Part shown: positions 35,716 through 63,200 of the stretch, in pieces
Numbering within the stretch: the first letter of the stretch is position 1
How the letters are laid out: each line of letters begins with the position of its first letter
Source of the DNA: Styela clava
Lineage: Eukaryota
Direction of reading: 5' to 3'
Length of the DNA stretch: 64,000 nt
Assembly: GCF_964204865.1 (NCBI RefSeq)
Contig: NC_135255.1
Location: 9,796,001 to 9,860,000, forward strand
The notes under the pieces: generated by a model
What the model was told of the DNA's origin: nothing
Databases searched by the model: none
Seen by the model: the letters and a program-made list of their open reading frames with translations, nothing else
Position numbers and translations under genes: made by a program

Positions 35716-36599
35716 GTAAAGAACAACTAAGTCAATTAGCTTATTAGTAATAACTACAAGTCTGTGACGTAATTGCGTTATATTCTGGTACGTTTAGGAA
35801 TTTATATCAAAATATTTATCTATCTTGACGCCCGTGGGCCGTAGTTTGGTGACCCCTGCTTTAGAGCTTGCTTTTAGATGAATTTTCCCATTTCCGCTTC
35901 GAGTCGATTCGTAAATCCAAAAGTGGCATCCCTATTCATGACACTTTTGACAAGATTTAGTTTGATTGAACTATATGGGTGATAAAAGATCCGAAGTGAG
36001 ATTGCAATCAGATCAAACATTTAATGCTAGTACTTGAATTATGCGTACGAAATAGAAGTTGAGGGCACGTCTGTGAGGTCGAAATTCGGCGTTACTGGCT
36101 ATAGACTGAGTGATATTTCAGAACTTTCGACTTCGGAGTCTAAATGTAATTTTTTTACGCCGAGAATTTCGGTACTTCTGAACCAGAGACCACATATGAA
36201 CTAAGAAACATGTTCGTTTTCACTAATGTTTAACCACACTCGCATAGTGATATTGCTGGTGGGCAATTTAATAGTGTAGTGTATGATGAACACAGACGGA
36301 GAATAACGGGTTTTTGCTTTCATAAATGTTGAGCAAACACAGTAAACAAATATTACGTGAAAGGTATGGCCCAATTCATACAAAAAAAAAATAGTATAAA
36401 AAGTGTAAAGGATTTCTTAATTGCAGCCACATTTTCAACGATGCGTTGCGTTGTGATCAATGACGCGAGTCTTGCGAGATATTACTAGGTAGAATTGCTG
36501 TGCTAAGGAATTTCCAACAGATGTAAAACGCAGCGACATGGTTATTTGTAGCTGATTAGCTATAGGGCATGCTTTTTACTTATTAGCATGCCAGTATAG

Positions 36600-37095
36600 C
36601 AGGGATGTGCAACCTTTTTCACTGGCGGGCCAAATTCAAGTAACTGAGTGAAGCCGCGAGCCGCACTGTTATTTAATATAGACTTTCTAGTAGTTACAGG
36701 CACAAAATTGTTTATTTTTGCTAGTCACCGTACGGCATTATTAGGGCTCCTATAGAAATAGTGAGTTAAACGCATAAACTTCTGAAGGGACTGCTATTTA
36801 AATTTATCGCCGCACCGTCTTTAATTCAATTCAGTGGAAAACACGTTTTTGTAATAAATATTGTATTTTTTGCAACAGAATTTTGCTAGCTAGTTTTGCT
36901 AATATGACAATGGCACTCAGGTTCTGGTATAGGCTTTGTGGCACAGAAGGATCAGAAGTGCTCGCACGTACCAGATTACATAAACTAAATACTCGGTTCG
37001 CGGACACACCATTCAAAATTGTTATTTTTCCGCGGGCCCCACAAATTTTTCCTGCGGGCCGCATTTGGCCCGCGGCCGCAGTTTGCACACCCCTG
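36600..37095. mobile_element. hAT-type MITE immediately upstream of the ADH3 TATA box
   Basis: TIRs cagggatgtgcaac / gtttgcacacccctg. TSD cagtatag / ccttatag. Empty site ccttatag at 35394-35401. Confidence 0.88.
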
Positions 37096-37113
37096 CCTTA
37101 TAGGAAAACTAGA

Positions 37114-37119
37114 TATAAA
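37114..37119 (+). promoter_or_regulatory. Putative TATA box of ADH paralog 3
   Basis: TATAAAgcagg, conserved in the orphan copies (35412 and 43978). It lies upstream of a candidate UTR exon and acceptor (ttcataag) before ATG 37332. Confidence 0.45.
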
Positions 37120-37331
37120 GCAGGCTCTGTATGCAGAAATTTATTTCACATATAGGTGTGAAAGTTTTGGGCTTACATTCATATCTTAAGTTTTAGAACT
37201 TAAGAAGTGAGCTCGCTTACATTCACGGTACAAAATAAAATAATCTAAATTAATGTAATATTCTCAATAGTGAGTAGAAACTTTTTATTCATAAGTTGAG
37301 TAATCGGACACAAAACTTAGACGAATCCATC

Positions 37332-40300: not shown

Positions 40301-42766
40301 CGATATAAGTGTAAGTGGATGGCGAGTTTTTTTTTTCAGTTTGGAGTCAGTTACACTACCGATTGTAAAAGAAAACTTTTTCAAAAGAAAAAATGCACAT
40401 GTATATTCAAAAGTGATTATGCGTGCAAGAAACTAATATGAAAATGCCACCTTAGTGGGTGAAACTTCGAAAGAGTCCATGAAATACAAAAATTATCAAA
40501 TCAGATTACCGGTAATATTATTAAACTGACAACATTAAAATGGCATTTGCTATACTTCAAATTGCTTTTTTTCTAATTTAAGCATGGGCCACTGCAAAAG
40601 AGTAGAAATAAGAAAGATAAACAGCCAATGAATAGAAAACTAATTGTATATGTACTTGGGATAGTTTTTGGTCAAATTCAAATGTCTTTTAATATGATAA
40701 TTTTGTGTAATTTTATTCAAGCAACCTAAATTAGAAAATGCTCTTGCACACGGTGCGGATGACACAGTTTTGTGGGATCCTTCTTTCAGTAAAGAAGATA
40801 TAATAAACAAAACAAAAGAGAAAGGAAGTGATGGCTCTATTCAAGCCGTTATAGATTTTGTCAACTCGGCTGCAACATCATCAAGAGCTATGGGAGTTCT
40901 TTCGAAGGTATGATTAATTCAGCTAAAATCACGCAAAAAAGATTGAATGTCCGTCGACAATTCCTATATTCTACGCAACAGTGTATCTCAAATGTACCCA
41001 GCGAGTATAGCCAACTTAGGAAAAGGTTTGGTTTAATGATTCAAGTTCAGCATCAACCTTTTATTTTAGGGTGGTACTATTGCTATGGTGGGATTATTTG
41101 GCGGATCATTAGAAATCTCCCTGCCATTGTTTGCATTTCTTCTTCAACAAATTCATGGAGTATTTGTCGGTTCTCTGGATCAATTAAAAGAACTTGTACA
41201 ATTAGCTTCAAATACCAAGGTAATGTACATTTAAACAAGCCGGTAGGCGCCCAGGATCTCCGCTGATAGTTGAGGCCCGCACTCAGGCAACCGGTTACCA
41301 CCCATAGAAACCTGAGGATCTCTAACGGCAGCGCGATTCAGAAAATGAGTGGGTTGTTACCGTAACTTGCGAAAAAAAAAATAAAAATTTCATAAAGATC
41401 GGCGTGTTTTTCGTTGTTATCATGGGAACGAAACTTCAATCCGGACTTTCCAAAAACGCAACTTAATAGGGTGATGGCATAATCGACGTGTAAAATTTCA
41501 TCCAGATTGGTCCAGCTGTTAAGACGCTACATCTAAACAGACAGACAGATACACAGACAGAACAAGCCGGTAGGCGCCCAGTTAGATTTCCGCCATTGCT
41601 TGAGGCCCGCATTATTTCAGTTTACTAACGGATAATAGGAGACACTACTAAAAACGCTAGTTCATTTCAAACGCAGCGCGTTTCGTAGACTCACTCGCGT
41701 GACTGGTATATTGTAACTGAAAATTAAAAAATAATCTTCAGTAAAATCCCTAAGGCTCCTCCAGTTTATGAAGTAACGAGATCAAAGATAACTTATTGGA
41801 AAGAGTATTTTGCTATGCGGAAGGTAGCGTTCTTGGAATTTTAATTTTCGACTTGGTTGGCGAGAAAACGGCGATATGTTGTGAAAAAAATTTCATAACG
41901 ATCGGCGCGTTTTTCGTTGTTACCATGGAAATGAAACCTCCATCCGGACTTTCCATAAAACGCAATACTAGGGTGGCTTGATAACCCATGTGAAAAATTT
42001 CATCCAGATTGGTCCAGCCGTTAAGACGCTACATCTAAACAAACAGACAGACAGATATACCGACAGACAAGCCGCTAGGCGCCCATCAGGGTCTCCGCTG
42101 ATAGTTGAGGCCCTCACTTAGGCGCGACCGGTTACCATCTATGAAAACTTGCGCAGGAAATTGCGACAGATTCTCAAAAAATTAGAAATTTCTCGACGAT
42201 TGGATGTTATTTGGTTGGTGCCATGGAAACGAAACACCAATCCAGCCTTTCGAGGAAACGAATAATACTAGGATGACAGGTTAACCTACATGAGAAATTT
42301 CATCCAAATTGATCCAGCCGTTTAGAGGCTACATATAAACAGACAGACAGGACGACTGAGAATAAGGGTCTCCTATAGAGCGGAGATCCAACAGACAGAA
42401 TGACTGATAATAAGGGTCTCCTAGAGCGGAGATCCAACAACTGATAATAAGGGTCTCCTAGAGCGGAGATCCAATATAAACAATTGTGGTTTCATAAATA
42501 GTAACAGAAAACGCGATAATGGGACACGAATAAGTTTAAGAAGTAATCTCTTTTGGTACTTGACCGACCTTCTCAATGAATCGTTTTTTAATATCCTTGA
42601 TAGCGCGGAAAAAGTCGAATAACATTAACAAACACACAATATATTTTCATTCGATGTACAGCTGAAGCCACCTGAGATATCTCATGTCAAGCTTGAAGAG
42701 GTGCCAGAGATGCTAGCAAAGCTGCGTAGAGGCGAAATCACCGGAAGAACCTTAGTGAAGTTTTAA
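37332..42766 (+). CDS. Zn-dependent alcohol dehydrogenase (MDR family), paralog 3
   Basis: Exons 37332-37427, 37873-38041, 38280-38421, 38564-38724, 40201-40310, 40722-40907, 41070-41219, 42662-42766. Motifs CGICHSDVH, FDIGGG, PIVLGHE, VYPWLGCSDCGLC..NFC, LPCSALT, GAGGLG, IDFVNSAATS, MVGLFGG. Confidence 0.93.
39791..39935. mobile_element. Mutator-type MITE (145 bp) in ADH3 intron 4
   Basis: TIRs ggtgaccgtacatttgaacc / ggttcaaatgtacaggaacc. Perfect 9-bp TSD atccttgaa on both sides. Confidence 0.85.
41234..42474 (-). mobile_element. Three nested DINE-1/Helentron-like (HINE) elements in ADH3 intron 7
   Basis: Three left ends acaagcc..taggcgccca (41234, 41561, 42067), each followed by a core ending aaatttcatcca.attg.tccagc + (acag)n. 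Three right ends aataagggtctcc..agagcggagatccaa finish at 42391, 42437 and 42474. Subterminal inverted repeat ggatctccgct / agcggagatcc. Confidence 0.8.
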
Positions 42767-43286
42767 TATGAAGCGTTGTTCAATTTAAGGGACTAATGAA
42801 TTCATTATTTCACCTTCAAATGATTAATATTATTTAGAATAGTAGCTATAAGTTTTCGTAAGGCCCAGCAAAATCAATACTGACAAACTTTGGAATAATG
42901 ATACAAACCAATAATTTCTGAATTGTTTTCATTCTACTATACTATTCCAACGTTTAATTTTTAAGGTTTTTAACTTATTCATGTAACGTTTGATTTATTG
43001 ATCTTGAGATATATACCATGTGCAACACGCGTCATATGATCAAAAATATATATATAATTCATCTTGAGGCAGATAATCAAACATACATGCATAATAAAAC
43101 ATACAAAAATGAAGAAAAAAAAACACGTTTAAGTTTGTTGGAAGAAGATATGGGCAGTGGGCAGTTGACATATATTCGATTTTTTTCTATTCGACACGAA
43201 CAATATTTCACACTTGTGCAACGACAGAACAACCAGATTGCAATTACCGTCGCCAGTTCTATACCTTATCTAAACTCAAACATTCG

Positions 43287-43669
43287 GAGAATGTGATCAA
43301 TGTCTTTATGCGTTATGCGTTCATCTAAACTCCAAAACCACCATGACTAAAATCATTCTCAGGTGAACGACGTTGACATCAGTTTCTTTTCTGCCAAGCG
43401 GGTTAGATTTGACCAGAAAGCAAAATTGGCCAAGTTTGGGATTCTGTCGAAGGAAAAGCCGAGCAGTCCCAATCGCAAGATTCCCTTGAATTGTATACTA
43501 AAAAGCTTATACTATTTTGTCTGTGGTTTGCTTTTGCATTCCATAATAGGTCGTAAAAACATTATACAATTCTATACATTTATTTTTTTCGGAATGGCGA
43601 ACAGGGGGGCCACGAGTGCAAAAAGACGCCGGAAGGGAGCCACGAGCCATAAAAGGTTGGGAACCACTG
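43287..43669. mobile_element. Right half of the hAT MITE carried at the duplication junction
   Basis: Matches 34706-35088 and ends ggttgggaaccactg + ttgtagag. The left TIR is absent. Confidence 0.85.
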
Positions 43670-44186
43670 TTGTAGAGTATGATGAACACGTCCGGAGAAT
43701 AAATTTTGCTTCCATTAATGTTTTAAATACACTAATGAAAAATAGTAGGTGAAAGATCTGACGCAATTCTGACATAAATAGTATAAAAAATGTCACGGAC
43801 TTCTTCATTTCATTCTTGCTGTGATCAACGACGCGGGTCTCGTCAGATATTACTAAGTAGAATTCCTGGGCAATGGGATTTCAAACAGCTGTAGAACGCA
43901 GCGACATGGTCATTTGTAGCTGATTAGCTATATAGCGTGCTTTTGACTTATTAGCATGCCCTTATAGGAAAACTAAGTATAAAGCAGGCTCTGTATTCAG
44001 AATTTTTTTTTGCCATGAAAGTATGAAAGTTTTGGGCTCACATTTTTTCATTCATATCTTAAGTTTCACAACTAAAGAAATGACTTCGCTTACAATTACG
44101 GTACAAGATAACTTAACTTGAATTTATGTAATATTTTCAACCATTTTTATAAGTTGAGTAATCAGATACGAAACTCAGAATCCATC

Positions 44187-44281
44187 ATGAAACAAATGGG
44201 AATTCCTTTTTCGGAAGAACCATTGGCACTAAAATACATTATACGGTTCCAAAACCACCGAAAGGCGGAATTACAGTTAAG
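44187..44281 (+). pseudogene. Orphan, frameshifted ADH exon 1 (copy b)
   Basis: Duplicate of 35621-35715 with the same 1-nt deletion (95 nt). Confidence 0.85.
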
Positions 44282-45089
44282 GTAAAGAACAACTAAGTCA
44301 ATTAGCTTATTAGTAATAACTACAAGTCTGTGACGTAATTGCGTTATATTCTGGTACGTTAAGGTATTTATATCAAAATATTTATCTATCTTGACGCCCG
44401 TGGGCCGTAGTTTGGTGACCCCTGCTTTAGAGCGCGCCCAATGATGAAGTTTCCCATTTCCGCTTCGAATCGATTCGTAAATCCAAAAGTGGCATCCCTA
44501 TTCATGACACTTTAAAGATTTAGTTTGATTGAACTGAACTATATGGGTAATAAAAGATCCGAAGTGAGATGGCAATCAAATCAAACATTTAATGCCAGTA
44601 CTTGAATTATGCGTACGAAATAGAAGTTGCGGGCACGTCTGTGAGGTCGGAATTCGGCGTTACTGGCTATAGACTGAGTGATATTTCAAAACTTTCGACT
44701 TTGGAGTCTAAATGTAATTTTTTTAAGCCGAGAATTTCGGTACTTCTGAAACCAGAGACCACATATGAACTAAGAAACATGTTCGTTTTCACTAATGTTT
44801 AACCACACTCGCATAGTGATATTGCTGGTGGGCAATTCAATAGTGTAGCGTATGATGAACCCAGACGGAGAATAACGGATTTTGGTTTCATAAATGTTGA
44901 GCAAACACAGTAAACAAATATTGTGAAAGTTATGGTTGCATTGTGATCAATGACGCGAGTCTTGCGAGATATTACTAGGTAGCATTGCTGTTCTAAGGGA
45001 TTTTCAACAGGTGTAAAACGCAGCGACATGGTTATTTGTAGATGATTAGCTATAGATCATGCTTTTGACTTATCAGCATGCCCTTATAG

Positions 45090-45582
45090 CAGGGATGTGC
45101 AACCTTTTTCACTGGCGGGCCAAATTTAAGTAACTGAATGAAGCCGCGAGCCGCACTGTTATTTAATATAGACTTTCTAGTAGTTACAGGCACAAAATTG
45201 TTTATTTTTGCTAGTCACCTTACGGCATTATTAGGGCTCCTATAGAAATAGTGAGTTAAACGAATAAACTTCTGAAGGGACTGCTATTTAAATTTATCGC
45301 GCCACCGACTTTAATTCAATTCAGTGGAAAACACGTTTTTGTAATAAATATTGTATTTTTTGCAACAGAATTTTGCTAGTTTTGCTAATATGACAGTGGC
45401 ACTCAGGTTCTGGTATAGGCTTTGTGGCGCAGTAGGATTAGAATTGCTCGCACGTACCAGATAACATAAACTAAATACTCGATTCGCGGACACACCATCC
45501 AAAATTGTTATTTTTCTGCGAGCCGCACAAATTTTTTCTGCGAGCCGCATTTGGCCCGCGGGCCGCAGTTTTCACACCCGTG
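45090..45582. mobile_element. hAT-type MITE upstream of ADH4 (duplicate of 36600-37095)
   Basis: TIRs cagggatgtgcaac / gttttcacacccgtg. Perfect TSD ccttatag on both sides. Confidence 0.88.
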
Positions 45583-45822
45583 CCTTATAGGAAAACTAGG
45601 TACAAAGCAGGCTCTGTATGCAGAAATTTATTTCACATGTAGGTGTGAAAGTTTTAGGCTTACATTCATATATATCTTAAGTTTCAGAACTTAAGAAGTG
45701 AGCTCGCTTACATTCACGGTACAAAATGAAAGAATCTAAATTAATGTAATATTCTCAATAGTGAGTAGAAACTTTTTTTTCATAAGTTGAGTAATCAGAC
45801 ACAAAACTTAGACGAATCCATC

Positions 45823-48800
45823 ATGAAACGAATGGAAATTCCTTGTTCGAAAGAACCAATGATATTGAAAGACATTGATACGATTCCAGAACCACCGAAA
45901 GGTGGAGTTACAATTAAGGTAAAGAACAGTTTGGTCGGTTAGTTTGTTAGTAATAACTGCAAGTATGTGATTATATACGTATATGTATTTATGTCGGAAT
46001 ATTTATATATATCTTGATGCCAGGGTTCAATATCCCCTTTGTTGTTAAGTATCACTGTTTTGTAAAATTATATTTCATTATAAATTATCTATGTTTTGCT
46101 AACATGGAATCCATAAGTTTATGTACGAAAAAAGAAAATAATTTATTATCAATTTTGGCCCGATGTTTTTAGGTTTTTATTTTGCACTGTCGCAAAATAG
46201 TATATATACTATAGTTGTCTGTTAATATATACAATCAATCCAAAAAGAATTCCAGTCAGAGTTATACATCAACAACCTAAAACAAATCTCAAGTATATCG
46301 ACGATTTGAATTCCATATTGTGAAATGATTTGACATTCTTGTGAAACACACTTTTGTTTTAATTCAGGCAGCTTTTTGTGGAATATGCCACTCAGATGTT
46401 CACATGTTCGATGATGAATTAGATATTGGTGGAGGGATATTTCTGAAGACACAGGATATCAATCCAAATGTTGAATATCCAATCGTGTTGGGGCATGAAA
46501 TATCTGGGACCGTTCATGCTATTGGAGAAGAAGCCGGTGAACGCGTAAATTTTTATAAAATACAGTATTTCAAATGATGATAGTAGACAATAAAATATGA
46601 CACAAATGCAATTGTTGATGAGTGCAAATGTATCTACCGTAGTTCATTAACCGACTCAAAAATGGTTTAGCACCGTTTTAAATGAACACCAAAATAAAGT
46701 AGCGACAAGGCTATCATTCAGACCATACAATCATATTCAGGAGATGATTTTAATAAATTTGTATTTAGATAATACGGACTTGAAAGTTGGTGACAGAGTT
46801 ATTGTCTATCCATGGCTTGGCTGTAGTGACTGCGGATTATGCGATGGAGAACAAGCAAATTTTTGTTGTGGACAATCAAATTATATTGGATGCTCTGGAC
46901 CTAATGGCGGGTAAATATCTTATGTTGAGCTTCACTCACTCACTATATATATATCAAATTTGGGTGGTATATTTCGTTTTATTCTTTCCTATTTTTACAC
47001 TTTATATGTTTTTTACAAAATAAAAATCATTCAATTGTATGCATTTCTTGCTCTAGATATTCTGAGTACATGAAAGTTACCAACCCAAAATACGTGCTAA
47101 AATTGCCTGACAATATACCATTGGATATCGCAGCAATGCTGCCATGTTCAGCACTAACCGGATATAACGCTGTATCAAAAGTGAAACCAACAATAGAAAG
47201 ATTCATCAACGCCAAAGGTATATCATTGTATTTCAGTCTTTTAGTTTGTAGAAGGCCTATAATTTTAACCCGTACTTCTCGGTTCGGTACAGTTCAAAAT
47301 AAATATTACATACAAAGGTTGAATGATTTAGGTTTACTCCCGTGAAAATATTTCTATGGATGGCTATAGCAGTCAGGCGTCAAAAATGTAAACGATCTTG
47401 TTTACTAACATTGAATTTACAAAATTCAACAACGCTATCTTTGATATGCGCTATCAACAATTTTGTCTTATCGAAAAAATTCTTGAATAAGAGTGATCTT
47501 ACATGGGAAAAGTAAATATTTGTTTTAGAATGTAAAATATCCGGTTCAGCGAACGGCACTGCAATGAATTACAAACGGATTTGTTTCAATCGCATCGAAG
47601 TAATTTGAGTGTCGCAGAATATAAAACCCACGATCTTTGCGTGTCATAGTCTGAACAAGCTCCATTTGGTAGCTAACTGATCTATGCCTCTTGGAGTGTT
47701 TCAGTCGTTCTTTTACCTCTATTATATAATTCAAACCGATGTTATATATGAAACATACCTAATGCAATACAGTAATCCGGATGACGCATATAATAAAATT
47801 TCCTAGCTTCGCTGTTTCATTATGCTTTGATACTTTGACATATTATCAGTCGTGAAATTGCGGTACCTGTTAAGGTGTTACTAATTTATTGTCAGCTCCT
47901 GTGCAGTGATACGAGACTATAAAATTATCGTGTTGGCACCGAGCGGTGATAAAAAACTTACATAGCAAATAATGAACAATTGAATTTAAAACGAAATGGG
48001 AGCAATCATCTGATTTTCTATATAAAGTTCGAGGTTTTTACCACTACAAAGGCGTACCGACAATTGAAAGAATGTTTTATTAAAATCAAACAAACAGACA
48101 GACGATTTAACAATGATACATCAAATATAAAATACCGCATACATACAATACTACTAATGTATAATGTACCAGTTACATTTATTAAACAAGTTTGAGCAAA
48201 TCGATTCGCTGGACCTCATCTGTAAGGCAGAATCACAAGCTGCCATTGGCAGGCCGGCATTTTTATAACTATGTATCCTTGAAGGTGACCGTACATTTGA
48301 ACCCATGTGTATATCCCGGGGTTCAATCAATATGCGTGTGCTAAAACCCATGGGTTAGTATGAGTTCAAATATCTGCAAAACAAAAAATTTCCATAGGTG
48401 CAATAGTCGGTTCAAATGTACAGGAACCATCCTTGAAAACTAGATGATAGTAAATAAATTACGTTCACATAACAAATCATTGAAGTACACATGTCCACGA
48501 CCATGTAATGACCATTTATGGACGTTACCCTTCTCCAAAACAAAAAGTAGCAAGAGTATTGGTGTCGGCTGGTAGTGATTATTAATATCATGTTCTCACA
48601 AGTTAATATAATTCTATAACATTGATATACCAGAAACAATTTGAAGCATCTGCTGGACTTTGGACATTAATCATGATTTTGTACTTTATGAAGGTAAAGC
48701 TACTTTGCTAATTATTGGAGCAGGAGGACTTGGATTGTGGTGTCTACAAACGGCAAAGGCAGTTTTACCGGAAGGAACGCGGATAATAATCTCCGATATA

Positions 48801-51467
48801 AGTGTAAGTGGATGGCGAGTTTTTTTTCTCAGTTTGGAGTCAGTTACACTACCGATTGTAAAAGAAAACTTTTTCAAAAGAAAAAATGCACATGTATATT
48901 CAAAAGTGATTATGCGTGCAAGAAACTAATATGAAAATGCCACCTTAGTGGGTGAAACTTCGAAAGAGTCCATGAAATACAAAAATTATCAAATCAGATT
49001 ACCGGTAATATTATTAAACTGACAACATTAATTTAAATGGCATTTGCTATACTTCAAATTGCTTTTTTTCTAATTTAAGCATGGGCCACTGCAAAAGAGT
49101 AGAAATAAGAAAGATAAACAGCCAATGAATAGAAACTAATTGTATATGTACTTGGGATAGTTTTTGGTCAAATTCAAATGTCTTTTAATATGATAATTTT
49201 GTGTAATTTTATTCAAGCAACCTAAATTGGAAAATGCTCTTGCACACGGTGCGGATGACACAGTTTTGTGGGATCCTTCTTTCAGTAAAGAAGATATAAT
49301 AAACAAAACAAAAGAGAAAGGAAGTGATGGCTCTATTCAAGCCGTTATAGATTTTGTCAACTCGGCTGCAACATCATCAAGAGCTATGGGAGTTCTTTCG
49401 AAGGTATGATTAATTCAGCTAAAATCACGCAAAAAAGATTGAATGTCCGTCGACAATTCCTATATTCTACGCAACAGTGTATCTCAAATGTACCCAGCAA
49501 GTATAGCCAACTTGGGAAAGGTTTGGTTTAATGATTCAAGTTCAGCATCAACCTTTTATTTTAGGGTGGTACTATTGCTATGGTGGGATTATTTGGCGGA
49601 TCATTAGAAATCTCCCTGCCATTGTTTGCATTTCTTCTTCAACAAATTCATGGAGTATTTGTCGGTTCTCTGGATCAATTAAAAGAACTTGTACAATTAG
49701 CTTCAAATACCAAGGTAATGTACATTTAAACAAGCCGGTAGGCGCCCAGGATCTCCGCTGATAGTTGAGGCCCGCACTCATGCAACCGGTTACCACCCAT
49801 AGAAACCTGAGGATCTCTAACGGCAGCGCGATTCAGAAAATGAGTGGGTTGTTACCGTAACTTGCGAAAAAAAAACTAAAAATTTCATAAAGATCGGCGT
49901 GTTTTTCGTTGCTACCATGGGAACGAAACTTCAATCCGGACTTTCTATAAAACGCAACTTAATAGGGTGATGGGATAATCGACGTGTAAAATTTCATTCA
50001 GATTGGTCCAGCTGTTAAGACGCTATATCTAAACAGACAGACAGATACACAGACAGAACAAGCCGGTAGGCGCCCAGTTAGATTTCCGCCATTGCTTGAG
50101 GCCCGCATTATTTCAGTTTACTAACGGATAATAGGAGACACTACTAAAAACGCTAGTTCATTTCAAACGCTGCGCGTTTCGTAGACTCACTCGCGTGACT
50201 GGTATATTGTAACTGAAAATTAAAAAATAATCTTCAGTAAAATCCCTAAGGCTCCTCCAGTTTATGGAGTAACGAGATCAAAGATAACTTATTGGAAAGA
50301 GTATTTTGCTATGCGGAAGGTAGCGTTCTTGGAATTTTAATTTTCGACTTGGTTGGCGAGAAAACGGCGATAAGTTGTGAAAAAAATTTCATAACGATCG
50401 GCGCGTTTTTCGTTGTTACCATGGAAATGAAACCTCCATCCGGACTTTCCATAAAACGCAATACTAGGGTGGCTTGATAACCCATGTGAAAAATTTCATC
50501 CAGATTGGTCCAGCCGTTAAGACGCTACATCTAAACAAACAGACAGACAGATATACCGACAGACAAGCCGCTAGGCGCCCATCAGGGTCTCCGCTGATAG
50601 TTGAGGCCCTCACTTAGGCGCGACCGGTTACCATCTATGAAAACTTGCGCAGTTACCGAAATTGCCTGTTCATTTTGAACGCTGTGCGTCTGCTTTTCAT
50701 CGTTGCGGGAGGAATAAAATGTGGCTAATTATTGAAAATTCCCAGAGCTTCGCCAATTTACAAGGTATCGAAATGAATGGCGGCTTGTTAGGGAAAGCAT
50801 TTTTTTCCGCGAAGGGTAGCAATCTCAGAATTTTAATTTTCGACTTAGTTTACGAGGAAATTGCGACAGATTCTCAAAAAATTAGAAATTTCTCGACGAT
50901 TGGATGTTATTTGGTTGGTGCCATGGAAACGAAACACCAATCCAGCCTTTCGAGGAAACGAATAATACTAGGATGACAGATTAACCTACATGAGAAATTT
51001 CATCCAAATTGATCCAGCCGTTTAGAGGCTACATATAAACAGACAGACAGGACGACTGAGAATAAGGGTCTCCTATAGAGCGGAGATCCAACAGACAGAA
51101 TGACTGATAATAAGGGTCTCCTAGAGCGGAGATCCAACAACTGATAATAAGGGTCTCCTAGAGCGGAGATCCAATATAAACAATTGTGGTTTCATAAATA
51201 GTAACAGAAAACGCGATAATGGGACACGAATAGGTTTAAGAAGTAATCTCTTTTGGTACTTGACCGACCTTCTCAATGAATCGTTTTTTTAATATCCTTG
51301 ATAGCGCGGAAAAAGTCGAATAACATTAACAAACACACAATATATTTTCATTCGATGTACAGCTGAAGCCACCTGAGATATCTCATGTCAAGCTTGAAGA
51401 GGTGCCAGAGATGCTAGCAAAGCTGCGTAGAGGCGAAATCACCGGAAGAACCTTAGTGAAGTTTTAA
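45823..51467 (+). CDS. Zn-dependent alcohol dehydrogenase (MDR family), paralog 4 (near-identical to paralog 3)
   Basis: Exons 45823-45918, 46368-46536, 46769-46910, 47057-47217, 48694-48803, 49218-49403, 49565-49714, 51363-51467. Amino-acid differences seen versus paralog 3: DEFDI>DELDI and LLVIG>LLIIG. Confidence 0.92.
48284..48428. mobile_element. Mutator-type MITE, duplicate copy
   Basis: Same TIRs and 9-bp TSD atccttgaa as 39791-39935. Confidence 0.85.
49729..51174 (-). mobile_element. Three nested DINE-1/Helentron-like elements in ADH4 intron 7
   Basis: Left ends at 49729, 50057 and 50563; right ends at 51091, 51137 and 51174. The innermost element retains ~204 bp (50653-50856) that is missing in the ADH3 copy. 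Confidence 0.8.
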
Positions 51468-54400
51468 TATGGAGCGTTGTTCAATTTAAGGGACTAATGA
51501 ATTCATTATTTCACCTTCAAATGATTAATATTATTTAGAATAGTAGCTATAAGTTTTCGTAAGGCCCAGCAAAATCAATACTGACAAACTTTGGAATAAT
51601 GATACAAACCAATAATTTCTGAATTGTTTTCATTCTACTATACTATTCCAACGTTTAATTTTTAAGGTTTTTAACTTATTCATGTAACGTTTGATTTATT
51701 GATCTTGAGATATATACCATGTGCAACACGCGTCATATGATCAAAAATATATATATAATTCAACTTGAGGCAGATAATCAAACATACATGCATAATAAAA
51801 CATACAAAAATGAAGAAAAAAAAAACACGTTTAAGTTTGTTGGAAGAAGATATGGGCAGTGGGCAGTTGACATATATTTGATTTTTTTCTATTCGACACG
51901 AACAATATTTCACACTTGTGCGACTACAGAACAACCAGATTGCAATTACCGTCGCCAGTTCTATACCTTATCTAAACTCAAACATTCGAGTTTAAAACAA
52001 CTACTAGCAACAAGTAACAAAGCGAACCCACTGGCGATATCAATCAATGACAACAAAAACCAAAAATTTTGTCAACAACAAACACGCCATTGATATATAT
52101 TAAATACTCGGGATTTTCATATATGATCATGGACGGTCACGAAATTGAATGCTCACACCGAAAGCCTTTTTGCCTACCTCACACTAACCTGCATATGCTA
52201 GCCAAATACTAGTGCTTAATGCACTGCAAAAATATGAATGTGGTATAAGCTTGATATAAGTCGTTAACAAATCTTTGCCCCTAGAAAGGTATTTTCGAAC
52301 TTGTGCAAAATCGTTTTCCGCAAGTCAGGTCTCATTTTCCTGGAATTTTTGATAGCAGGCTTATAGGTACGTGGCCCTAGCAAAAACCTCTTCCTTGGCC
52401 GTAAATAATGTAGGGTGGTGGTAAAGCAGATGGAACCAGTTCAGAAAATATTCCGGAATTGAAAGTTACTAAAATGTGGCTATAGTGTTAATGGCTAATA
52501 CGTGCCGGTCTCATCGCAATGACCCTAAAATCGTAAACAGCAGTATTACGCTTAGAACATTGGTCCCTTCGAATACTAAAATATTAGATAATAGCGTACT
52601 GAGTTTCAAATAAAATATGGAGAAAATGGAATGTAGACCTAAACGTCCTCAATGCTTCGAAACGCTGTATTAGTTTATTTGGCCATGGTATTATATATGT
52701 TCATGGAAACTTACTAAACTAAAACAAAATTTATTCATATTCACTTGAACTGTACAAAGGGTGCCTCAAATTCCGAGTAATCCTGTCAAAAGTATGGCCT
52801 GAGTAAGCTGTACCAATTCTAGACTATTACTCATTATATGGCTCTGTAAAGCATGCCTACAAGTAAAATGTTTTTTAAATATATATAAACAAAACGTGAA
52901 TATATAATAATAGAAGGGATTATGAAGATTGATGTGGACAATGACTCGACTAGAAAGTACATCACAAATTCCCAGAAATATTATGAAAATTGGTTAGAAT
53001 TTCTACCTCCAACCTATATTTCTCATGATTGATAATAGTTTGCCTGTCGGTATTTATATACATTTATGCCGGGTGGTGCAATCGGTTAGTGCGTCAGGAT
53101 TTTTCGTATTGGAGATTTGACGAACGTGATCAAGTTATGTAACGAAAAAATTGAAATGTACATGTTTCACAACTCGAAAATAGACCTGCCAGATATGCGG
53201 TAGAAAAGACTCACTGGCGGAAAAGTTTGATAACTTTGTAGCTTACATGAAATGCTTGTTTCACAATATTTCGTTGTACATGGATACGTATTTAAACATG
53301 ACATTTCTAACTGTGAACAATGAATCCATGAAATTAATCACCGCAAAATTGACTCCAAAATATATGCCCAAAAAATGAAAAATTTGCCACGAAAGTTGAA
53401 CTAATTACAAATATATAAATGCAACTGTATGCAAATACAGTTAGTAGCCGCGCATCATAAAACTTACAAATCAATTTCCACGAATTTTAGGAAAACTTTA
53501 GATAATGAGTCAAGGTTGCGTTATATTGTGCCAAAATTGTTATACTGATGTTCTTTCTGAGAATTACATTTATTCTGAGAAATGCATTGCAATGATGATG
53601 TCGTGTATTATTGATAGTCGAGCTATTACTTATAAACTAAAGATTAGGAATGAAATTCTTCTATCGAAGATATTACTAACATAGTTGAAGTTTGTTTCAT
53701 TTATCGCGTTAATTCTAAGCATCTACCACAGCGTGTCGGATATACCTCAAGAACGATCGCAATTTCTCCATTCTCTACGCCTTGAGGAAATTAACAACGA
53801 AAACGGACGTGTTTAATAACAATAATGATACAATCGAAATCGAAAAATTGTCGAATGCTTTAAAATTGTTACGCGTGGTCATCAAATGATGATAAGATAA
53901 GGTTTTGCAACACTATAGAATATATGATAGAAGGTGTGGTATCATAAAATTATCTTTGATTTCAAATTTCGGATATTTACCTACGTATTTATTAGTAATA
54001 TAAAAAAGCGCGTAATGGAAAAGAATTCAGTCAGAAAATGAGGTATATAGTTGTCAATGAAATTGATTTGCCCCCCAATAGGATGTCTACTTTTCGTTGG
54101 ATTTCAGTGTAAATTTTAGTATTTTAATTTAACATCCTGGTGGAATAAGTCGAGTGGAATACGTCGAAGTGTAAAGATACGGTGTCTTCAGTTATAGAGT
54201 CATGCAAAATTTTATAGTAATTAGGCTGAATATCGAAATGTAGGCTGTTACATTTGGTAAATTTTGCAAGCATCCAAAGTAGAGTTTCTAATAAAACATA
54301 TCATTTGTTTCAGTACTTCCGGTTGTTTAATAGTTTTCGTTGAAATTTTTTGGCAATAAAATTGATGGAATTTTCCCTTTTTAGATGCCAGGTGAAAATA

Positions 54401-55425: not shown

Positions 55426-58400
55426 ATGTATACCTTAATGCTCAATGAATTTGGAGGGTTGAGAAGGGGGATACTCCTACTCTTGGTGTACGTACAACTA
55501 ACTGAAGGTAAGAACGTTAACGCGTTAAAATTTTTCAGTAAGGTATAATATAAATTCTGATGCATCGTTACTTACTTACTTACCTGGTTGCGTAATACAC
55601 GAACATCGATAAAGAATATTTGTTGCTACGAATTTTAGAATAGCTTTATTTTGGTTAAGTATGGAATGATTAGATATGTACTTCATCGTCAAATCATCTG
55701 TTCTGACAACAATTCGGCAGTTTATCATCTCCTTAAATTTCAATAAAGTTGTCATGACGGAAACAATAGGGTGCGCGTTATTTATGTAGTTTGCTCCAAT
55801 TAATATTATTATTACCGTAAAAAGATTCACAAGCGGTCACTTGCTTGGGGGCAACATGTTGATCCAATGAAGCCATGATACTGGGTATATATTGTGCATA
55901 GTATATTTACATATACTGTATAAATAAAAAATAATTTGAATTCTAATTAAAGCCGTGTAAAACCAAAGTTTGAATTCAATGCAGGACTGAAATGCTGGAC
56001 ATGCGACGGCAAACGATCGCTTTCAGAATGCTATGCGCAGTATGGAAAGATGCTCGAATGTCAAAACCCTGATGATGTAAGAGATATGAATATAATTTTT
56101 CGTGAAAAAATAAACATATTATCGATGTACTATTTATTGATTGTAGGTCTGCCAAAACGACTACAGATTTAGGGCTGGTTTGCCGCTGCTTATAAAAGGA
56201 TGTAAGCAGGAGCAAGCTTGTTTGAATGAAGAAAAAGAGGTAAGGTGTATTTTTATTACCATTGGGAATTTCGGTTTACCGAGAATTGGGTGAAAAAACA
56301 GGTTCCGAGTAGAAACATATTTTGTCAAAAATTGCAACTTGTGTACCATGGCGAATATTTGAGGCCCGTAAAACTGTGTTAAGTGGAAATATTCGTAGTT
56401 TAATATTTTTTGAATTCCCATTTTTAGAAATATATTTGTATGCTATTTTTATTAATTTCTATATATGGTTCATTGGTAGAGCTATTCAAAAAATTTATTA
56501 TGACTATCAATTTTTTTGGGTGAAAACTTGTATGTGCCCAAGTTTTGAATAGCAATTAAACTTTATTATCACAAAAAAGAGAAATAAACTTTATAGAGGA
56601 ATTAGTTCGGATTCGGACAGACTTACGTATGATAAAATTGGATTGACGGGATTAAACCAAATTTGACCCAAGCCACAGAAAATATGCAGTATCAGTAAAA
56701 AATAACCATAGAAAAAGCAAGCATATGGAGCTTGAGTTCTTTTTTACTTTCTATAGCATAAAAATCAATGTGGTCGAGGGAAAAATAACGCCTGCAGATG
56801 CTGCTGCAAAACAAACGGGTGTAATAGAAAAGTATCAGGATGTGTTCCTCGTAAGTTATTTTATTGTTGTTTTTGTTCGTTAATCAGAACATGATTTAGT
56901 TTGTACATGCATGTATGTCCACGTATCGACGGAATAATAAAACGCATTACTTATTACAGCCCCGGCCCCGTGCAAGAAACCTAGAGCTCCAATCAACGGA
57001 CTAGTGTTCTGTGACCGCGAGCTAAATTTTGGCGCAAAATGTAGATATCGTTGTATTTTTGGATACGAAAGAGAAGGCCCTCCTACATCAACCTGCGTGA
57101 AGAATCCTGACAAGCCAAAGAAAGGGTTATGGTCACCTGAGCCACCAATCTGCAAAAGAGTGTTCATTGAGTGCCTTCCACCTCGCACAAATCCACAAAA
57201 TGGATTTGTCAGATGTGAAAACTCAAGAGAGTTTGCAAGGTACAAAAGATTTACTTTTGAAGGCACGAGATGTGTATATTCTTGCAAGCAAAATTACTAT
57301 TTGAAAGGAAAGAAACTATCGCAGTGCAGATCGAATGGACTATGGAGCAACGATATACAACCGACTTGTGTGATCGGAAGATGCAGAATTCCAGTCCCAG
57401 ATGAGAACAGAATTAATATTTGCACGAGTGGTTTTAAATTTGGAAGCAGTTGTAGATTCAAGTGCAAGCCCGGATATAGGCTGGTCGGGAAAGACTTCTC
57501 TGATTGTAATCAATTCGGTAGATCGGAACGCGGATTTTGGTCACAAGGTCTACCAAGATGTGACAAGATTAAATGTTCAAATCTAGATGATCCGGAGAAA
57601 GGCAAAGTCTCCTGCCCGAACGGCACTGACTTGGAAAGCGTATGCCAATACAGATGTAACAAAGGATATGATTTGGACGATACAATACAAAAAATAGTAT
57701 TGACAACATGCCAGTACGTGGACGTCGAAGAAGGGTCTGTTGACTGGAGTCGGAAGCCTCCTCCTACTTGCAGTAGAATCAGGTGTAATCCTCCATTCCA
57801 AAATCCAAAAAATGGGAAAGTAAAATGCACAAATAAGAACTGGCTAGACAGTGTATGTAGATTTTCTTGTGACAAAAATCATGTTGCTCCCTACGATACA
57901 GCTGGCTCTCTAAAGAGTGTCTGCCAGGACGATGGAGATAATGACAAATTTGGCGAATGGAGCATGAAAATGGCTTTTGATTGCAAACCTGTAACATGTG
58001 AGACTAATACTATCAAACTCATCAATTCAATAGTGACATGCACGCAAGGAAATAGTGTTGGCAGTACTTGTAAAATTGAGTGCTTAAGAGGATACGCATT
58101 TGAAGGTTCACAAGTTGGAGTAATCAACACAACATGCAGAAGCACTAATTCAATGTCATATAAAGGTTCTTGGACTTTGATACCACCTCAATGTAGCATT
58201 ATCAAATGCCCCCCATTACCTCCTGTTGAACATGGAACAACGAAGTGTTCTAACAAAGACTATATAATTGGAACGAAGTGTAAATTTGCTTGTAATAAGA
58301 ACTACCGTATGATAGGAAAAGCACAAACATCCTGTCGAGATATTGAAAAGGATGGCGACACAACAGGAGAGTGGACTAATCCTCCGCCGAAATGCAGTCT

Positions 58401-60287
58401 TGGAAAATGCCCACCTATACTATTTGACGACCGAACTGTTGTACGGGACTGTACAGCCCCGGAAGGGTATGATGTATTAGAATTCAGAGTGGGCACCCAA
58501 TGCCGATACACGTGTAAAGATGATAGTTATTACATGCTCAATGAATTTACCAATGAACCAATACTCAGAGATGAAGTGCTCGCATCATGCACCGATAGAC
58601 GTTTATGGAGTAATCCGGCACCGAGGTGTATAAAAAAGATATGTCTTCCCGTGCCCAAAGCTCTAACCAATGGATATTTTCCAAAATGCACAAATGGAAA
58701 TATAATTGGATCAACCTGCGTATTCAGATGCAAAGAAAAATATGAGCTAACCCAGCCTAGGCCTATAAAATGCATCGCAGACGACGACAATGATGCATAT
58801 GGAACATGGGATGGGGAATTGCCAACATGCAAACGCAGTCATTGCGACGATTTTGGAATGGTGAAACATGGTACTCTAAATTGCACAGAGGGTTCAAGAA
58901 TCGGATCTGTGTGTCAGCTCACATGTAAAGATCGTTACACGACAAAGCAATATGAAACTACAGCATGCCTTGATACAATTGACTGGAGTTCCCGCCAATT
59001 TTTTTGTTGCGTCCGATGTTTATTCAATAAACGAATTAGGGTTTTGGGTGTTTACGATTCTTCAGCTTTCCGGACAAAGCTTGACTGGGAATATATGGTT
59101 GATTTTACGGAATCTTATCTATCTTATATGGTACGGTACGGATTCGACATTGAGTTTTCTGCTTTCAACTATGCGAAAGACGTTGACACCTCTAATTTGA
59201 TCAAGATGAAAAAATTGAGAGACCGAGAGGATGTGAGTGAAGTATCTGCGGATTTGGAATATATGTGCGACAAAGAATGTTTGAAAGACAATGGTAAGAC
59301 AATATTACCGTTTCACAAATGTACTGCGTATGGTTGTGTATGGAACGTAAATGGTTCACACGCGTCGTTCTAAATATCGCGCGAAGTCACATTGGTATCT
59401 GGGTAATATAACCAGAATACAAGTAGTGCAATTTTGCAAAATAGAGATATTTATCTTTACCAAGACGCCTGGGGTTAGGCGCCATTTATAACAGTAACTA
59501 TACATACCCGTTTGAAGCAGATATGAGAAAGAAATATAACCCGATAAATCCGAAACGATAAAAACCTAAGGCTACATCTTTCTAATTAAAGCAAAATTTA
59601 TATATTAGCTGCATATACTGGTCGGGCTTTACGATACATTGACGAAGAAGTATTCCCTGAAGTGGAAAAAAGAAGAGAACATTTCGTTATCTTGAGAACG
59701 ACAGGAAGATCAAGAGATCAAACAGCGGCAATTGCAAAGAAACTCCGAGAGAAAAATATAAATGTAAGAGTAACTTTAAAATACACACACTATCTAGCTA
59801 GTTTAAAAGATGCGATGGAAGATAAGTTCATAGAAAAATGTCAACATTTAAACGGCATTTAACTTCCCCATGAAACGTCCGAATTCAGTCAATCAACTTC
59901 ATTATAAGGTTATTATGCTTTCGTCAAAACACAGAAATTCGTAAATGAGGGAATTCACGATTTACTGTGGTTGCATTTCCATGAAAATGATAATATGACG
60001 GGTGCCTGTTGCGGGTGGCATAAATGTTCAGGCTACGCAAAAAAAGAAGAATGACAATACCCCATACGTTATTGGTAATCTATTTACTTTCTTTTACGTA
60101 GATTTTAGTCATCGGCATTCAAAGCAAGAAAGATTCGGAGGCACAACTGTTGCAGATCGCTGGTAAAGAACGTAACTATCTAGCGGTGAGAAAACCACAA
60201 GATTTAAGAAACGTGCCCGCAAAGATTTTCGAAATATCGCGAGAGACAGGCTGCACAGCTGCAAGCAAGACACAAAATTGCTCATAA
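55426..60287 (+). CDS. Secreted mosaic protein: signal peptide + Ly6/uPAR (three-finger) domain + 10 Sushi/CCP modules + vWA domain (~1011 aa, 7 exons)
   Basis: Exons 55426-55507, 55985-56076, 56147-56239, 56757-56850, 56960-59293, 59609-59763, 60102-60287 total 3036 nt in frame. N-terminus ..GILLLLVYVQLTEG/LKCWTC..KGC..CRCCCKTNGCN. Ten 6-Cys selectin-type CCPs follow. vWA motifs VLGVYDSS, YTGRAL, VILRTTGRS, ILVIGI, LLQIAG. The first exon is the least certain. Confidence 0.88.
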
Positions 60288-63200
60288 CGTTCCTACAATA
60301 GTCACAATCCATCACGGGTCAATGTTGAACATATTCATCTCACAGTGACACTAGATGCAGGACAAAAATAGAATTTCAAGATTTGCAAAAATGATTCTCA
60401 TGGTATTTCAAGTATTATAAAATATTTGAATATGAGAGTTATGAGAATTGAGCAAGATCACACTTGTTTTCTTCTACAACTGCAACATTCTTCAACTTCC
60501 ACTTGTTTGGTGCACAAAATTAGACCAGGCATTATCCCATTTCCACTCTTTTCTTCGTAAAGATGACTTGGCAATAAAATACATCCGAGGGGTGTCGCCA
60601 GCGATCACAGTATAACAATAAACATAATTAAAATCACTTAGTAAAGAAATCACTTTAATAAGATAGTATAATCTTTTCTAATCAATTAAATTTTTGATGT
60701 ATGTCATGAATATATATTCGGTCTCATTGTTGCTATCTCTTTAGGTGTAAGAAATTATTTTATATCATGTTTCATCGGAACAATAAAACTAAAATTTGCA
60801 ACATCGTTCTATGACAATATTCCCCGCGAAAGGTGTGGAAGACAGTCTAAGGTGGAAATGTATAGCGATTATACAAAAATTCAAATAGTGTAATTTAGTT
60901 TTTATATACCCATATTTGATTAGTTTTTGTGCGGAGAGGAAATTCAGATTTATCTGGCTTCAGAAAGATCAAATTTTTTTTCGATTTTCTAAAAAAAGAT
61001 CATAAAAAAGTTGTTAAAGTTTCTGGAACTTATATAAAATGTTTTTTTTTTCAGTTTTGGCGCATTTTCGTCAGACTAAAAGTCCAATATTCTAGTCTGG
61101 CACTTGTCTGTGTTGCGTCCTAAAAACAAGAATTTGGTATTTAAATGAAACAGTCTTGTGGTTAATAATACCAAAGTCATATTCCCTCTGTGACTGTGAA
61201 AAAAAAATCGTCATGTCAATTTGTAATATATACTAAATATATAAATTTACAACACTACTCACCGAAATAACTTGAAAAAAAAAAATAATTACGGAAATTG
61301 ATTTATATGTATTTTTGCTAAATATTAACTTTTCAAACACCAACTCTTGGGTCAAAAAACGAGCTCACGTTTAGGTAACGTAGCAGTAAAGTTCAATATC
61401 GTTCGAAAAGAAGTCAATTCCGAAAGGAAATTCACTTTTAGACCTTTTAAAAAATCGAAGAGCGATAGTTATTTATTTTGAATTGATGATTTGAATGAAA
61501 ACTCTTCGTATGAAAAAAGCATCATTGTGGAAGTCTAACAAAAATTTACTCTCTGACTCGTTAGAACTGAAATGGCGCTATTTTGCTTTATTACCAGCAG
61601 GTGGTAAAGATTGATCGGTAGGAAAGAGAGGTTCAATATTAATACCGCTTTCCTTTAACACCCATAATGTGAACAATCAACCGTACTGAGTCGACATAAT
61701 AAGCTATAGAAAGCTAGAATTCAATTTACTGAAATTTGAATCCAACATAAGAAGTTTCGGTTATATATTTTTAATTATACTGATATTTAATGATGACACG
61801 TTCACTATAGCTTTACTATTATAAATCATAACGTGCAGATTTCTACTTTTGTAAGCGTGCTGGAAGCTGACAATCGACCTTAGAGTCCAGACATGTAATT
61901 AACGCAATGATCTGTGTTGGCATTGATCGATAAGGTGCTGTTTGAGCAAAAAAGATCGAATAATAAAACTGTACAAAGTGCATATTCAATTAATACTTAT
62001 CAATACATTAGTCTAAGTTGTTGAACATTATAGCAGTAGATTTATAGCCAAATATATGACATTATTCAATATTGGAATTAACGAGTAATTTAATAATTAC
62101 AAATGGCAAAAAAAGTAAATAGCAATAGGTATTTTAAAATCCGACTAGTAACATCGAAAATTTCAACATCGAAATATTCGAATGACATATAAATTTTTTT
62201 CTTAACTTTGATAGAAATTTGTTTGATTATTTAAAATAATACATTTTGTTGTGTATGTCTCAAACAACATTAAAGTAAACAAGTATATACGCCAATACGC
62301 GTATATACAGAGATGCATGGAATTATTTTTGAATGACCCCCGCTACGCATTTGGCTGTTAAACAAAATACAGTCTACAGTCGGTAACTACACCGTGCAAC
62401 ACATTGGAAATTCCGATTGGTCTTATAAATACTTAAAATAAAATTATTTTCTCATTACAAAGAAAACAACAGGACTATATTTGAATAAAACAAAGTTTCA
62501 ATGATTTCCATACCAGACTATACTTCATCCACCTCTATCAATCACATTCTTTGTCTGGACAGTACGTATCGTTAACGTGTTTAATAATTCAGACGAGACG
62601 TACAATTTTAATACTGACCGTTGATCAATTGTGTCCGACGAAACAAGTTATTCCCGTTCTCGATGATATGAATTAAAATGTAAAATGTTTAACTTATTAT
62701 TTACTTTTTAATCCGGACGTGCGACAAATTTAAACTGAAAATTCTATTTTTACTTGAAGTCAGTAATTATTTATATTTCAAAGACATCAATCGTAGACAA
62801 AATATTCTGAACATTCAAATATGGAAAGGTCATGGGTAGGATAAATGATTTCAATTTATTCTGTAATATCTTATTATTAATTTTATCAATTTACCAAGTC
62901 AGGTCGGTAATTCGCTTCGAAGACTTTCTTTCACACACAAAGGCGATTTGTATGACCAATATGACTAGTTGATATAATTCCAATACCACGCGTTGACATG
63001 GTATATATATATACATTGTATGAAGTAAAACTATTATGATGATACACAAATTTTGAAGAAGTACAATTTCGCTTTATTAGTTAAACTCAACCTTAACAAA
63101 AAATATTTTTTAAATAGGTTCTATCTTTCATGACTTTACACATGCCCATATAAAACTGGTTTATGTTATGCGCGAGGAAATTTGGCCTCGCTATCTAAGC

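What the first reader, a model, noticed from the sequence alone, without database searches (positions are those of the whole stretch)
55426..60287. Ly6/uPAR + 10xCCP + vWA secreted protein combining three complement-associated modules without a protease
Seen: manual splicing adds a signal peptide, a three-finger domain (LKCWTC...CCCKTNGCN) and a full C-terminal vWA domain to the 789-aa ORF. There is no TM segment, GPI tail or protease domain. Knowledge: CD59 is an LU domain, complement regulators are CCP arrays, and factor B/C2 are CCP-vWA-protease. I know of no characterised vertebrate protein with this architecture; pipelines would probably label it P-selectin or SVEP1-like. Inference: a lineage-specific innate-immune regulator or decoy, or an extracellular matrix/tunic adhesive protein.
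Basis: partly seen in the sequence, partly recalled or inferred. Interest (0 to 1): 0.7.

Follow-up and report, generated by a model that had tools for sequence, protein, structure and literature searches.

The report
Sea-squirt three-finger-tipped secreted rod family
This sea-squirt gene is spliced into one long protein with a three-finger domain at one end, ten sushi repeats and a vWA domain at the other end; it belongs to a large sea-squirt gene family that databases label "P-selectin-like" and is likely a secreted matrix or mucus linker rather than a complement regulator.

Summary
Seven exons give a 1011-aa protein: signal peptide, 14-cysteine three-finger (LU) domain, ten sushi (CCP) repeats, vWA domain. 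There is no protease or membrane anchor. One RNA-type contig spans all six joints, and the model equals NCBI's "P-selectin-like [Styela clava]".

It is not a one-off. The architecture occurs in 28 of 165 proteins examined, with 2–25 CCPs. All 19 named ones are ascidian (Styela, Clavelina, Ciona), and this genome holds about 19 or more loci.

The complement reading is weak:
- The LU is closest to LYPD1/LYPD6, not specifically CD59.
- The CCPs have six cysteines; complement regulators have four.
- The family's vWA is closest to collagen VI and mussel PTMP1, not factor B.
- This copy lacks the vWA metal site (MIDAS).

It lies in a derived subfamily that also lost a block of about ten introns, probably through cDNA. 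Most likely it is a secreted matrix or mucus linker rod (0.5). Immune and signalling-tether roles are not excluded, and no function was tested. None of ten literature searches described the architecture. Primers for a published Styela "p-selectin" map to a paralogue.

The parts
55426..55507 (+). Exon 1: start codon and predicted signal peptide (about aa 1-28)
   Evidence: joint 1 in X1, X2, X3; hydropathy
55985..56076 (+). Exon 2: first third of the LU (three-finger) domain
56147..56239 (+). Exon 3: middle of the LU domain
56757..56850 (+). Exon 4: end of the LU domain (CxCCC...CN) and linker cysteine; LU = aa 29-118, 14 Cys
56960..59293 (+). Exon 5 (2334 nt): all ten CCPs and the first half of vWA in one exon, where paralogue P0174 has ten introns
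56971..59007 (+). Ten 6-cysteine CCP/sushi repeats (aa 125-803)
57928..57960 (+). Acidic loop in CCP5 (aa 444-454), possible calcium site (inferred)
58339..58374 (+). Acidic loop in CCP7 (aa 581-592)
58780..58809 (+). Acidic loop in CCP9 (aa 728-737)
59056..59070 (+). Degenerate MIDAS start (aa 820-824; the last serine of DxSxS is Phe)
59609..59763 (+). Exon 6: middle of vWA; the MIDAS aspartate of the [TS]DG motif is Thr
60102..60287 (+). Exon 7: end of vWA, two terminal cysteines (predicted to clamp to C804/C807), stop
60288..60797 (+). 3' UTR as far as contig X3 reaches; AATAAA at 60782

Best explanation
The gene is spliced into an anchorless LU-10xCCP-vWA protein that is predicted to be secreted and likely works as a rod-shaped linker in the extracellular matrix, tunic or mucus. 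Shown: the spliced transcript, the three domain types, the lack of an anchor or protease, the family, and the loss of MIDAS. Inferred: (1) the ten CCPs, each with a third disulfide and some with an acidic loop that may bind calcium, form a spacer of roughly 35-40 nm (3.5-4 nm per CCP, recalled); (2) the basic head (LU +5, CCP1-2 +15) grips sulfated glycans or a protein partner, the LU being the best-kept part in close relatives; (3) the vWA tail, clamped by terminal disulfides, binds a matrix polymer such as collagen, with a metal ion in the ancestral group and without one in this subfamily; (4) family members with 2-25 CCPs supply linkers of different lengths.
For: No membrane or GPI-like tail in 28 of 28 family members. 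For short member P0192 the top vWA matches are collagen VI alpha 3 (E 2e-77), mussel thread matrix protein PTMP1 (1e-19) and other collagen VI chains; factor B and C2 are not among its 48 hits. With the family profile, collagen VI and PTMP1 match at the vWA positions, while factor B and C2 match in one stretch, CCPs only. Six Cys in 10 of 10 CCPs; family CCPs mostly carry two more Cys than named CR1-like/CR2/factor H CCPs. The acidic loop is in 32 of 269 family CCPs and 0 of 3366 CCPs of non-LU proteins. The same LU module also sits on matrilin-like vWA-EGF protein P0188 and EF-hand/EGF/thyroglobulin protein P0191. Low coding variation: 2 substitutions in 3036 coding bases against 15 in 3965 non-coding ones in haplotype X6, p 0.012, unlike a hypervariable recognition gene. 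CCP and vWA proteins are house components in Oikopleura (PMC3390340, passages).
Against: No tissue, protein localisation or binding data exist for this gene; the run labels are coded. The top solved-structure matches to the CCP array are complement receptors and regulators (CR1, CR2, factor H), though long arrays score high by length. The matrix protein SVEP1 has C3b cofactor activity (PMC6683126, passages), so matrix and complement roles can coexist. LU conservation above the other domains holds for P0002 and (bar CCP10, 63 vs 60%) P0012, but not for P0027 or P0048. The collagen VI likeness was shown with a group A member and the family profile; the first half of this copy's own vWA found nothing. 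All 80 cysteines can be paired inside domains, so no covalent cross-linking site is evident.
Confidence: 0.5

Rival explanations
1. Soluble innate-immune protein: an opsonin, decoy or complement regulator that binds ascidian C3b through the CCP array or vWA.
For: Best PDB matches of the array are CR1, CR2 and factor H. CD59 is a fold match at Z 8.2, rmsd 3.7, 77 aligned. CCP-vWA order is shared with factor B/C2 (PMC11312191, passages). SVEP1 has cofactor activity. The family is expanded and partly tandem. A sushi-rich gene of unknown identity marks Botrylloides phagocytes (PMC12212465, passage).
Against: 6-Cys rather than 4-Cys CCPs, with 60-80 aa repeats and loop inserts. No MIDAS in this subfamily, 0 of 6, whereas factor B uses it to bind C3b (recalled). 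Factor B and C2 vWA do not match the family profile at E 1e-6. CD59 is absent from the LU profile hits. Low polymorphism.
Confidence: 0.22
2. Matrix-tethered signalling modulator: the LYPD1/LYPD6-like finger acts on a receptor or ligand (nicotinic receptor, Wnt co-receptor, or TGF-beta/BMP), and the rod and vWA replace the GPI anchor by holding it in matrix at a set distance.
For: LU profile: LYPD1 E 4e-8, LYPD6 3e-5, LYPD6B 8e-5. Top fold LYPD6B at Z 9.7; TGF-beta family receptor ectodomains at Z 7.4-7.7. LU is 70% and 60% identical in the two closest relatives, against 33-38% for vWA. A paralogue was picked as a gene responding to TGF-beta inhibition in Styela tail regression (PMC11988888 section 3.4; primers map to the C16 paralogue).
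Against: A shared fold shows no function; identity to LYPD proteins is 20-24%. The receptor roles of LYPD1/6 are recalled, not tested. Responding to a pathway does not show that a protein modulates it.
Confidence: 0.18
3. Specialised adhesive or egg-coat protein (larval papilla glue, test or follicle cell coat, gamete recognition).
For: Likeness of the family vWA to mussel PTMP1. Unidentified ascidian 'p-selectin' and 'vwa1c' genes are expressed in oocytes, siphons or papillae (PMC4523013; PMC4109947; passages). This copy is unusually basic (net +37).
Against: Those genes could not be matched to this family. Low polymorphism argues against self/non-self gamete recognition.
Confidence: 0.1

Closest known systems
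Selectins (P/E/L), the database label
   Same: Array of 6-Cys CCPs (6-Cys selectin CCPs recalled; E-selectin is a modest hit).
   Different: No C-type lectin, EGF or transmembrane domain; has LU and vWA instead. The label is a mis-annotation.
Complement factor B / C2
   Same: CCPs directly followed by vWA; secreted.
   Different: No serine protease, ten 6-Cys CCPs, an extra LU head, MIDAS lost, and vWA not matched to factor B/C2 by the family profile.
SVEP1/polydom, matrilins, collagen VI, mussel PTMP1 (secreted vWA matrix proteins)
   Same: Secreted, anchorless, vWA plus repeat arrays; the family vWA is closest to collagen VI and PTMP1.
   Different: Order LU-CCPn-vWA; no pentraxin, EGF, coiled coil or collagen helix in this protein.
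LYPD1 (Lynx2), LYPD6, LYPD6B and other LU proteins, including CD59
   Same: Three-finger fold, CxxC start, CCxxxxCN end.
   Different: 14 Cys; no GPI tail; fused to a CCP rod and vWA.
RCA regulators (factor H, CR1, C4BP)
   Same: Long CCP arrays; top PDB hits of the array.
   Different: 6-Cys CCPs with acidic loop inserts; flanking LU and vWA.

Membership tests
Selectins | N-terminal C-type lectin plus EGF domain | tested here: not met
   Pfam finds only Sushi and VWA above cut-off; the N-terminal domain is a three-finger fold
Selectins | Transmembrane segment | tested here: not met
   max hydropathy 0.95 after residue 35; 0.0 in the last 45 residues
Selectins | 6-Cys CCP repeats | tested here: met
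   10 of 10 repeats have six Cys; the selectin pattern itself is recalled
Factor B / C2 | C-terminal trypsin-like protease | tested here: not met
   protein ends about 15 aa after vWA; stop and 3' UTR are on contig X3
Factor B / C2 | CCPs followed by vWA | tested here: met
Factor B / C2 | Intact MIDAS in vWA | tested here: not met
   neither DxSxS nor [TS]DG in this protein; 0 of 6 in its subfamily, 20 of 21 in the other group
RCA complement regulators | 4-Cys CCPs | tested here: not met
RCA complement regulators | Five-motif pattern of Ojha et al. 2019 | not testable with these tools
   motifs are given as figure logos that are not held
RCA complement regulators | C3b binding, cofactor or decay activity | not testable with these tools
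   needs an assay
Ly6/uPAR (LU) domain superfamily | Three-finger fold with CCxxxxCN end | tested here: met
   pLDDT 86 model; LYPD6B Z 9.7, rmsd 3.2, 84 aligned; first unrelated rows Z 4.0 or lower; profile E 4e-8 to LYPD1
CD59 | GPI-anchored single LU domain | tested here: not met
   multi-domain protein, no hydrophobic tail
CD59 | Closest LU relative by sequence or fold | tested here: inconclusive
   fold rank 6, Z 8.2 against 9.7 for the top row; not among 16 profile hits
SVEP1/polydom | N-terminal vWA with HYR, EGF and pentraxin domains | tested here: not met
   (definition recalled)
Secreted vWA matrix proteins (works-like claim) | Located in matrix, binds matrix polymers | not testable with these tools
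   only sequence likeness
Ascidian LU-CCPn-vWA family (defined here) | Signal peptide, 14-Cys LU, 6-Cys CCP array, C-terminal vWA with terminal cysteines, shared LU and vWA intron positions | tested here: met

The most novel reading that the evidence does not exclude
Ascidians have an undescribed family of soluble three-finger modulators on molecular rulers. A LYPD1/LYPD6-like finger is held in matrix by a vWA foot at a distance set by 2-25 calcium-stiffened CCPs, in place of a GPI anchor. Several 'P-selectin' genes cited in ascidian metamorphosis, endostyle and fertility papers would be these proteins, and this subfamily rewired the foot by losing its metal site after a cDNA-mediated intron purge.
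Probability: 0.2. Interest if true: 0.7.

Novelty: new variant of a known kind. Interest (0 to 1): 0.45.

Why it matters
First, it corrects a label. At least one Styela gene studied as "p-selectin" in metamorphosis is an LU-CCP-vWA protein with no lectin domain and no anchor, so arguments drawn from selectin biology do not carry over. Second, it defines a large ascidian family whose N-terminal three-finger domain Pfam nearly always misses (1 weak hit among 30 proteins scanned, 28 of them LU-bearing); these are candidates for tunic, mucus-net or matrix components in the sister group of vertebrates. Third, the family offers a natural comparison of MIDAS-intact and MIDAS-less vWA domains, and a clear case of block intron loss. 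All parts are known domains and no function is shown, so interest is moderate.

Tried and rejected
- Single-sequence AlphaFold of the whole protein: pLDDT 30.5, unusable.
- Complex prediction of LU with vWA, to test head-to-tail assembly: no answer, score 0.00 in two runs, alignments not used. Not counted either way.
- ESM Atlas: LU part gave one unnamed hit at 0.76; vWA part gave generic vWA clusters.
- Pfam on single LU exons: nothing.
- First half of this vWA against PDB: only 2 chance hits.
- A degenerate C-R/S-C-C-C DNA pattern to count loci: 228 matches against 223 in the control, noise.
- Runs X10 and X11 laid nothing and X12 one 213-nt piece; no proof of absence, and tissues are unknown.
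- Supplements of PMC9953650 and PMC11988888: no hit for 'selectin'; both files were cut when stored, so expression values for this gene could not be found and may lie there under other gene ids.
- Ci-sushi (KH.C11.274), Sccpb, vwa1c and Botryllus selp could not be matched to the family for lack of sequence.
- PMC7401272 and PMC5612238 passages added nothing specific. PMC129952 is not held.
- Earlier-findings searches by sequence and by words were empty.
- Rejected: chance or mis-joined exons; a truncated factor B; a Styela-only novelty.
Full report
1. The observation. The region holds a seven-exon gene on the + strand from 55426 to 60287, with GT..AG introns and an open frame of 1011 aa. All six joints appear in contigs of runs X1 and X2. 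One 3538-nt contig of X3 carries all seven exons in order. X5, from another study, shows two joints, and X6 holds the stretch unspliced. The model equals stored protein P0001, which NCBI names 'P-selectin-like [Styela clava]' on a contig of the same length as the window's.

2. Domains. Residues 29-118 hold 14 cysteines. Pfam misses the domain in P0001 and gives one weak UPAR_LY6_2 hit among 30 relatives scanned, 28 of which carry it. A 30-sequence profile finds LYPD1 (E 4e-8), LYPD6 and LYPD6B; CD59 is not among the 16 hits. The AlphaFold model (pLDDT 86) matches LU proteins: LYPD6B Z 9.7, PSCA 8.9, GPIHBP1 8.8, LYPD1 8.6, CD59 8.2, with TGF-beta family receptors at 7.4-7.7 (Foldseek agrees). 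Ten CCPs follow, each with six cysteines. Counting with a window that includes one neighbouring cysteine, 209 of 269 family CCPs show 7, and 37 of 48 CCPs of named CR1-like, CR2 and factor H show 5. An acidic D-rich loop before the CCP tryptophan is in CCP5, 7 and 9 here, in 32 of 269 family CCPs and in 0 of 3366 CCPs of non-LU proteins. Calcium binding by it is an inference. The vWA (812-996) passes Pfam's cut-off but has neither DxSxS nor [TS]DG. No membrane or GPI-like segment is present. The 80 cysteines can all pair within domains.

3. The family. Of 160 proteins from two searches (11, the best 150 of 2746), 25 have LU + CCP + vWA and 6 have LU + CCP. With five more the count is 28 of 165, with 2-25 CCPs. 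Of these 28, 10 are named Styela clava, 6 Clavelina lepadiformis and 3 Ciona intestinalis; 8 are unnamed and 1 was not looked up. No named non-ascidian member appeared, but the searches were capped, so absence elsewhere is not shown. In this genome, 13 of 19 LU-exon hits have a vWA-start hit downstream on the same strand within 23 kb (pairing by position, checked for two). Six further loci resemble the window gene: three in tandem on C6, two on C10 and one on C19. That gives about 19 or more.

4. A derived subfamily. A tree of LU + vWA from 27 members (P0113 left out, vWA truncated) splits six long-branch proteins, including this one, from the other 21 with support 99. None of the six has the MIDAS motifs; 20 of the 21 have both. 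A vWA tree of 43 sequences with outgroups gives the six support 100 and nests them among MIDAS-intact members at 91 (supports re-read one node along the path, because re-rooting shifts the labels). Long branches may inflate the grouping. The window gene's six introns match introns 1-4, 15 and 16 of the 16-intron paralogue P0174 in phase. Five match in alignment column within one residue, and the sixth lies in the same LU-CCP linker. The ten introns in between are absent as a block, also in P0002 and P0162. Recombination with a reverse-transcribed copy is the likely cause (inference). A wholly intronless FN3-LU-CCP2-EGF-CCP2-vWA frame on C19 shows that such copies probably arose in this genome. 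Six single-frame ORFs of 620-796 aa, five of them unnamed Logan records and one not looked up, have their best hits in this subfamily, so the long exon probably exists in other species. No named Ciona or Clavelina protein falls in the subfamily.

5. How it likely works. The family's vWA is closest to collagen VI and the mussel thread matrix protein PTMP1. Factor B and C2 match the family profile only through CCPs. The same LU module also sits on other matrix-like proteins. CCP1-2 are net basic in 22 of 28 members and the rest of the array net acidic in 22 of 28; this copy is basic almost throughout (net +37). The LU is 70% and 60% identical in the two closest relatives against 33-38% for vWA, but it is not better kept in the two distant ones. 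Coding variation is low. I read this as a two-ended linker with a spacer of set length in matrix, tunic or mucus (0.5). Against this, the array's best solved matches are CR1, CR2 and factor H, SVEP1 shows that a matrix protein can be a C3b cofactor (PMC6683126; abstract, outline and passages), and no localisation or binding data exist. Rivals: immune regulator or opsonin 0.22, matrix-tethered signalling modulator 0.18, adhesive or egg coat 0.10.

6. Literature. Ten full-text searches found no paper that describes an LU-CCP-vWA architecture. The library lacks most subscription journals, including older ascidian immunity and metamorphosis papers that I recall (Sccp and Vwa1 genes), so novelty is not proven. 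PMC11988888 (section 3.4 and primer table) tested a Styela 'p-selectin' by qPCR after TGF-beta inhibition. Both primers map exactly into the vWA exons of an LU-CCP9-vWA paralogue on C16. The authors' 'matrix organisation' class follows the annotation and is not independent support, and the text that I read does not give the direction of change. Passages only: PMC9953650 ('P selectin' and SVEP1 high in anterior endostyle), PMC8495957 and PMC13225635 (Ci-sushi), PMC4523013, PMC4109947, bioRxiv 10.1101/2023.01.06.522990 (Sccpb), PMC12212465, PMC3390340, PMC11312191. None of those genes could be tied to this family by sequence.

7. Earlier notes. One AI note on this genome (e1-9500364) describes a lectin-LU-sushi rod with acidic loops and reads it as a matrix or mucus tether. 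It agrees with my reading, which I had recorded before, and it is not independent evidence.

8. Verdict. A real, expressed gene, and a member of an ascidian-wide, mislabelled and apparently undescribed family built from known domains. It is not a selectin, factor B, CD59 or RCA member by the features tested. New variant of a known kind; interest 0.45.

Noticed in passing
G000:C6 about 9862700-9875070 (L001/L002), just right of the window: Middle copy of the three tandem genes has a 1.8-kb insertion with a short inverted repeat inside CCP1 and no GT at the break, so it may be disrupted; it also has an intron at the CCP10/vWA junction that its neighbours lack.
   Followed up: partly
L015:6445-8778 + (G000:C19:6351445-6353778): One intronless frame FN3-LU-CCP2-EGF-CCP2-vWA with intact MIDAS; looks like a retro-derived, shuffled family copy.
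   Followed up: partly
window 34706-52000: Recent tandem duplication of about 8.5 kb (96-99% identical) over exons of a zinc alcohol-dehydrogenase-like gene cluster that starts near 26600.
   Followed up: no
G000:C16:18853800-18861300 (L011/L012): LU-CCP9-vWA paralogue, head-to-head with P0111/P0174; target of the 'P-selectin' qPCR primers of PMC11988888.
   Followed up: yes
proteins P0055, P0060, P0188, P0191: The 14-Cys LU module also occurs in lectin-LU-CCP rods, a matrilin-like vWA-EGF protein and an EF-hand/EGF/thyroglobulin protein, so it is a mobile module that Pfam mostly misses.
   Followed up: partly
L004:1138-1773 - and L004:9333-9998 +: STIMATE-family exon and a bHLH exon lie just beyond the tandem cluster.
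   Followed up: no
L009 (G000:C19:9445001-9450000): Fragmented reverse-transcriptase/integrase frames of an LTR-type retroelement next to the C19 paralogue, recognised by eye; observed only.
   Followed up: no
P0163: An older annotation fuses the two tandem C10 genes into one 1999-aa model; the newer one splits them.
   Followed up: no
window 27647-28081 -: Frame with a signal-peptide-like stretch and a short cysteine-rich segment, no Pfam hit.
   Followed up: no
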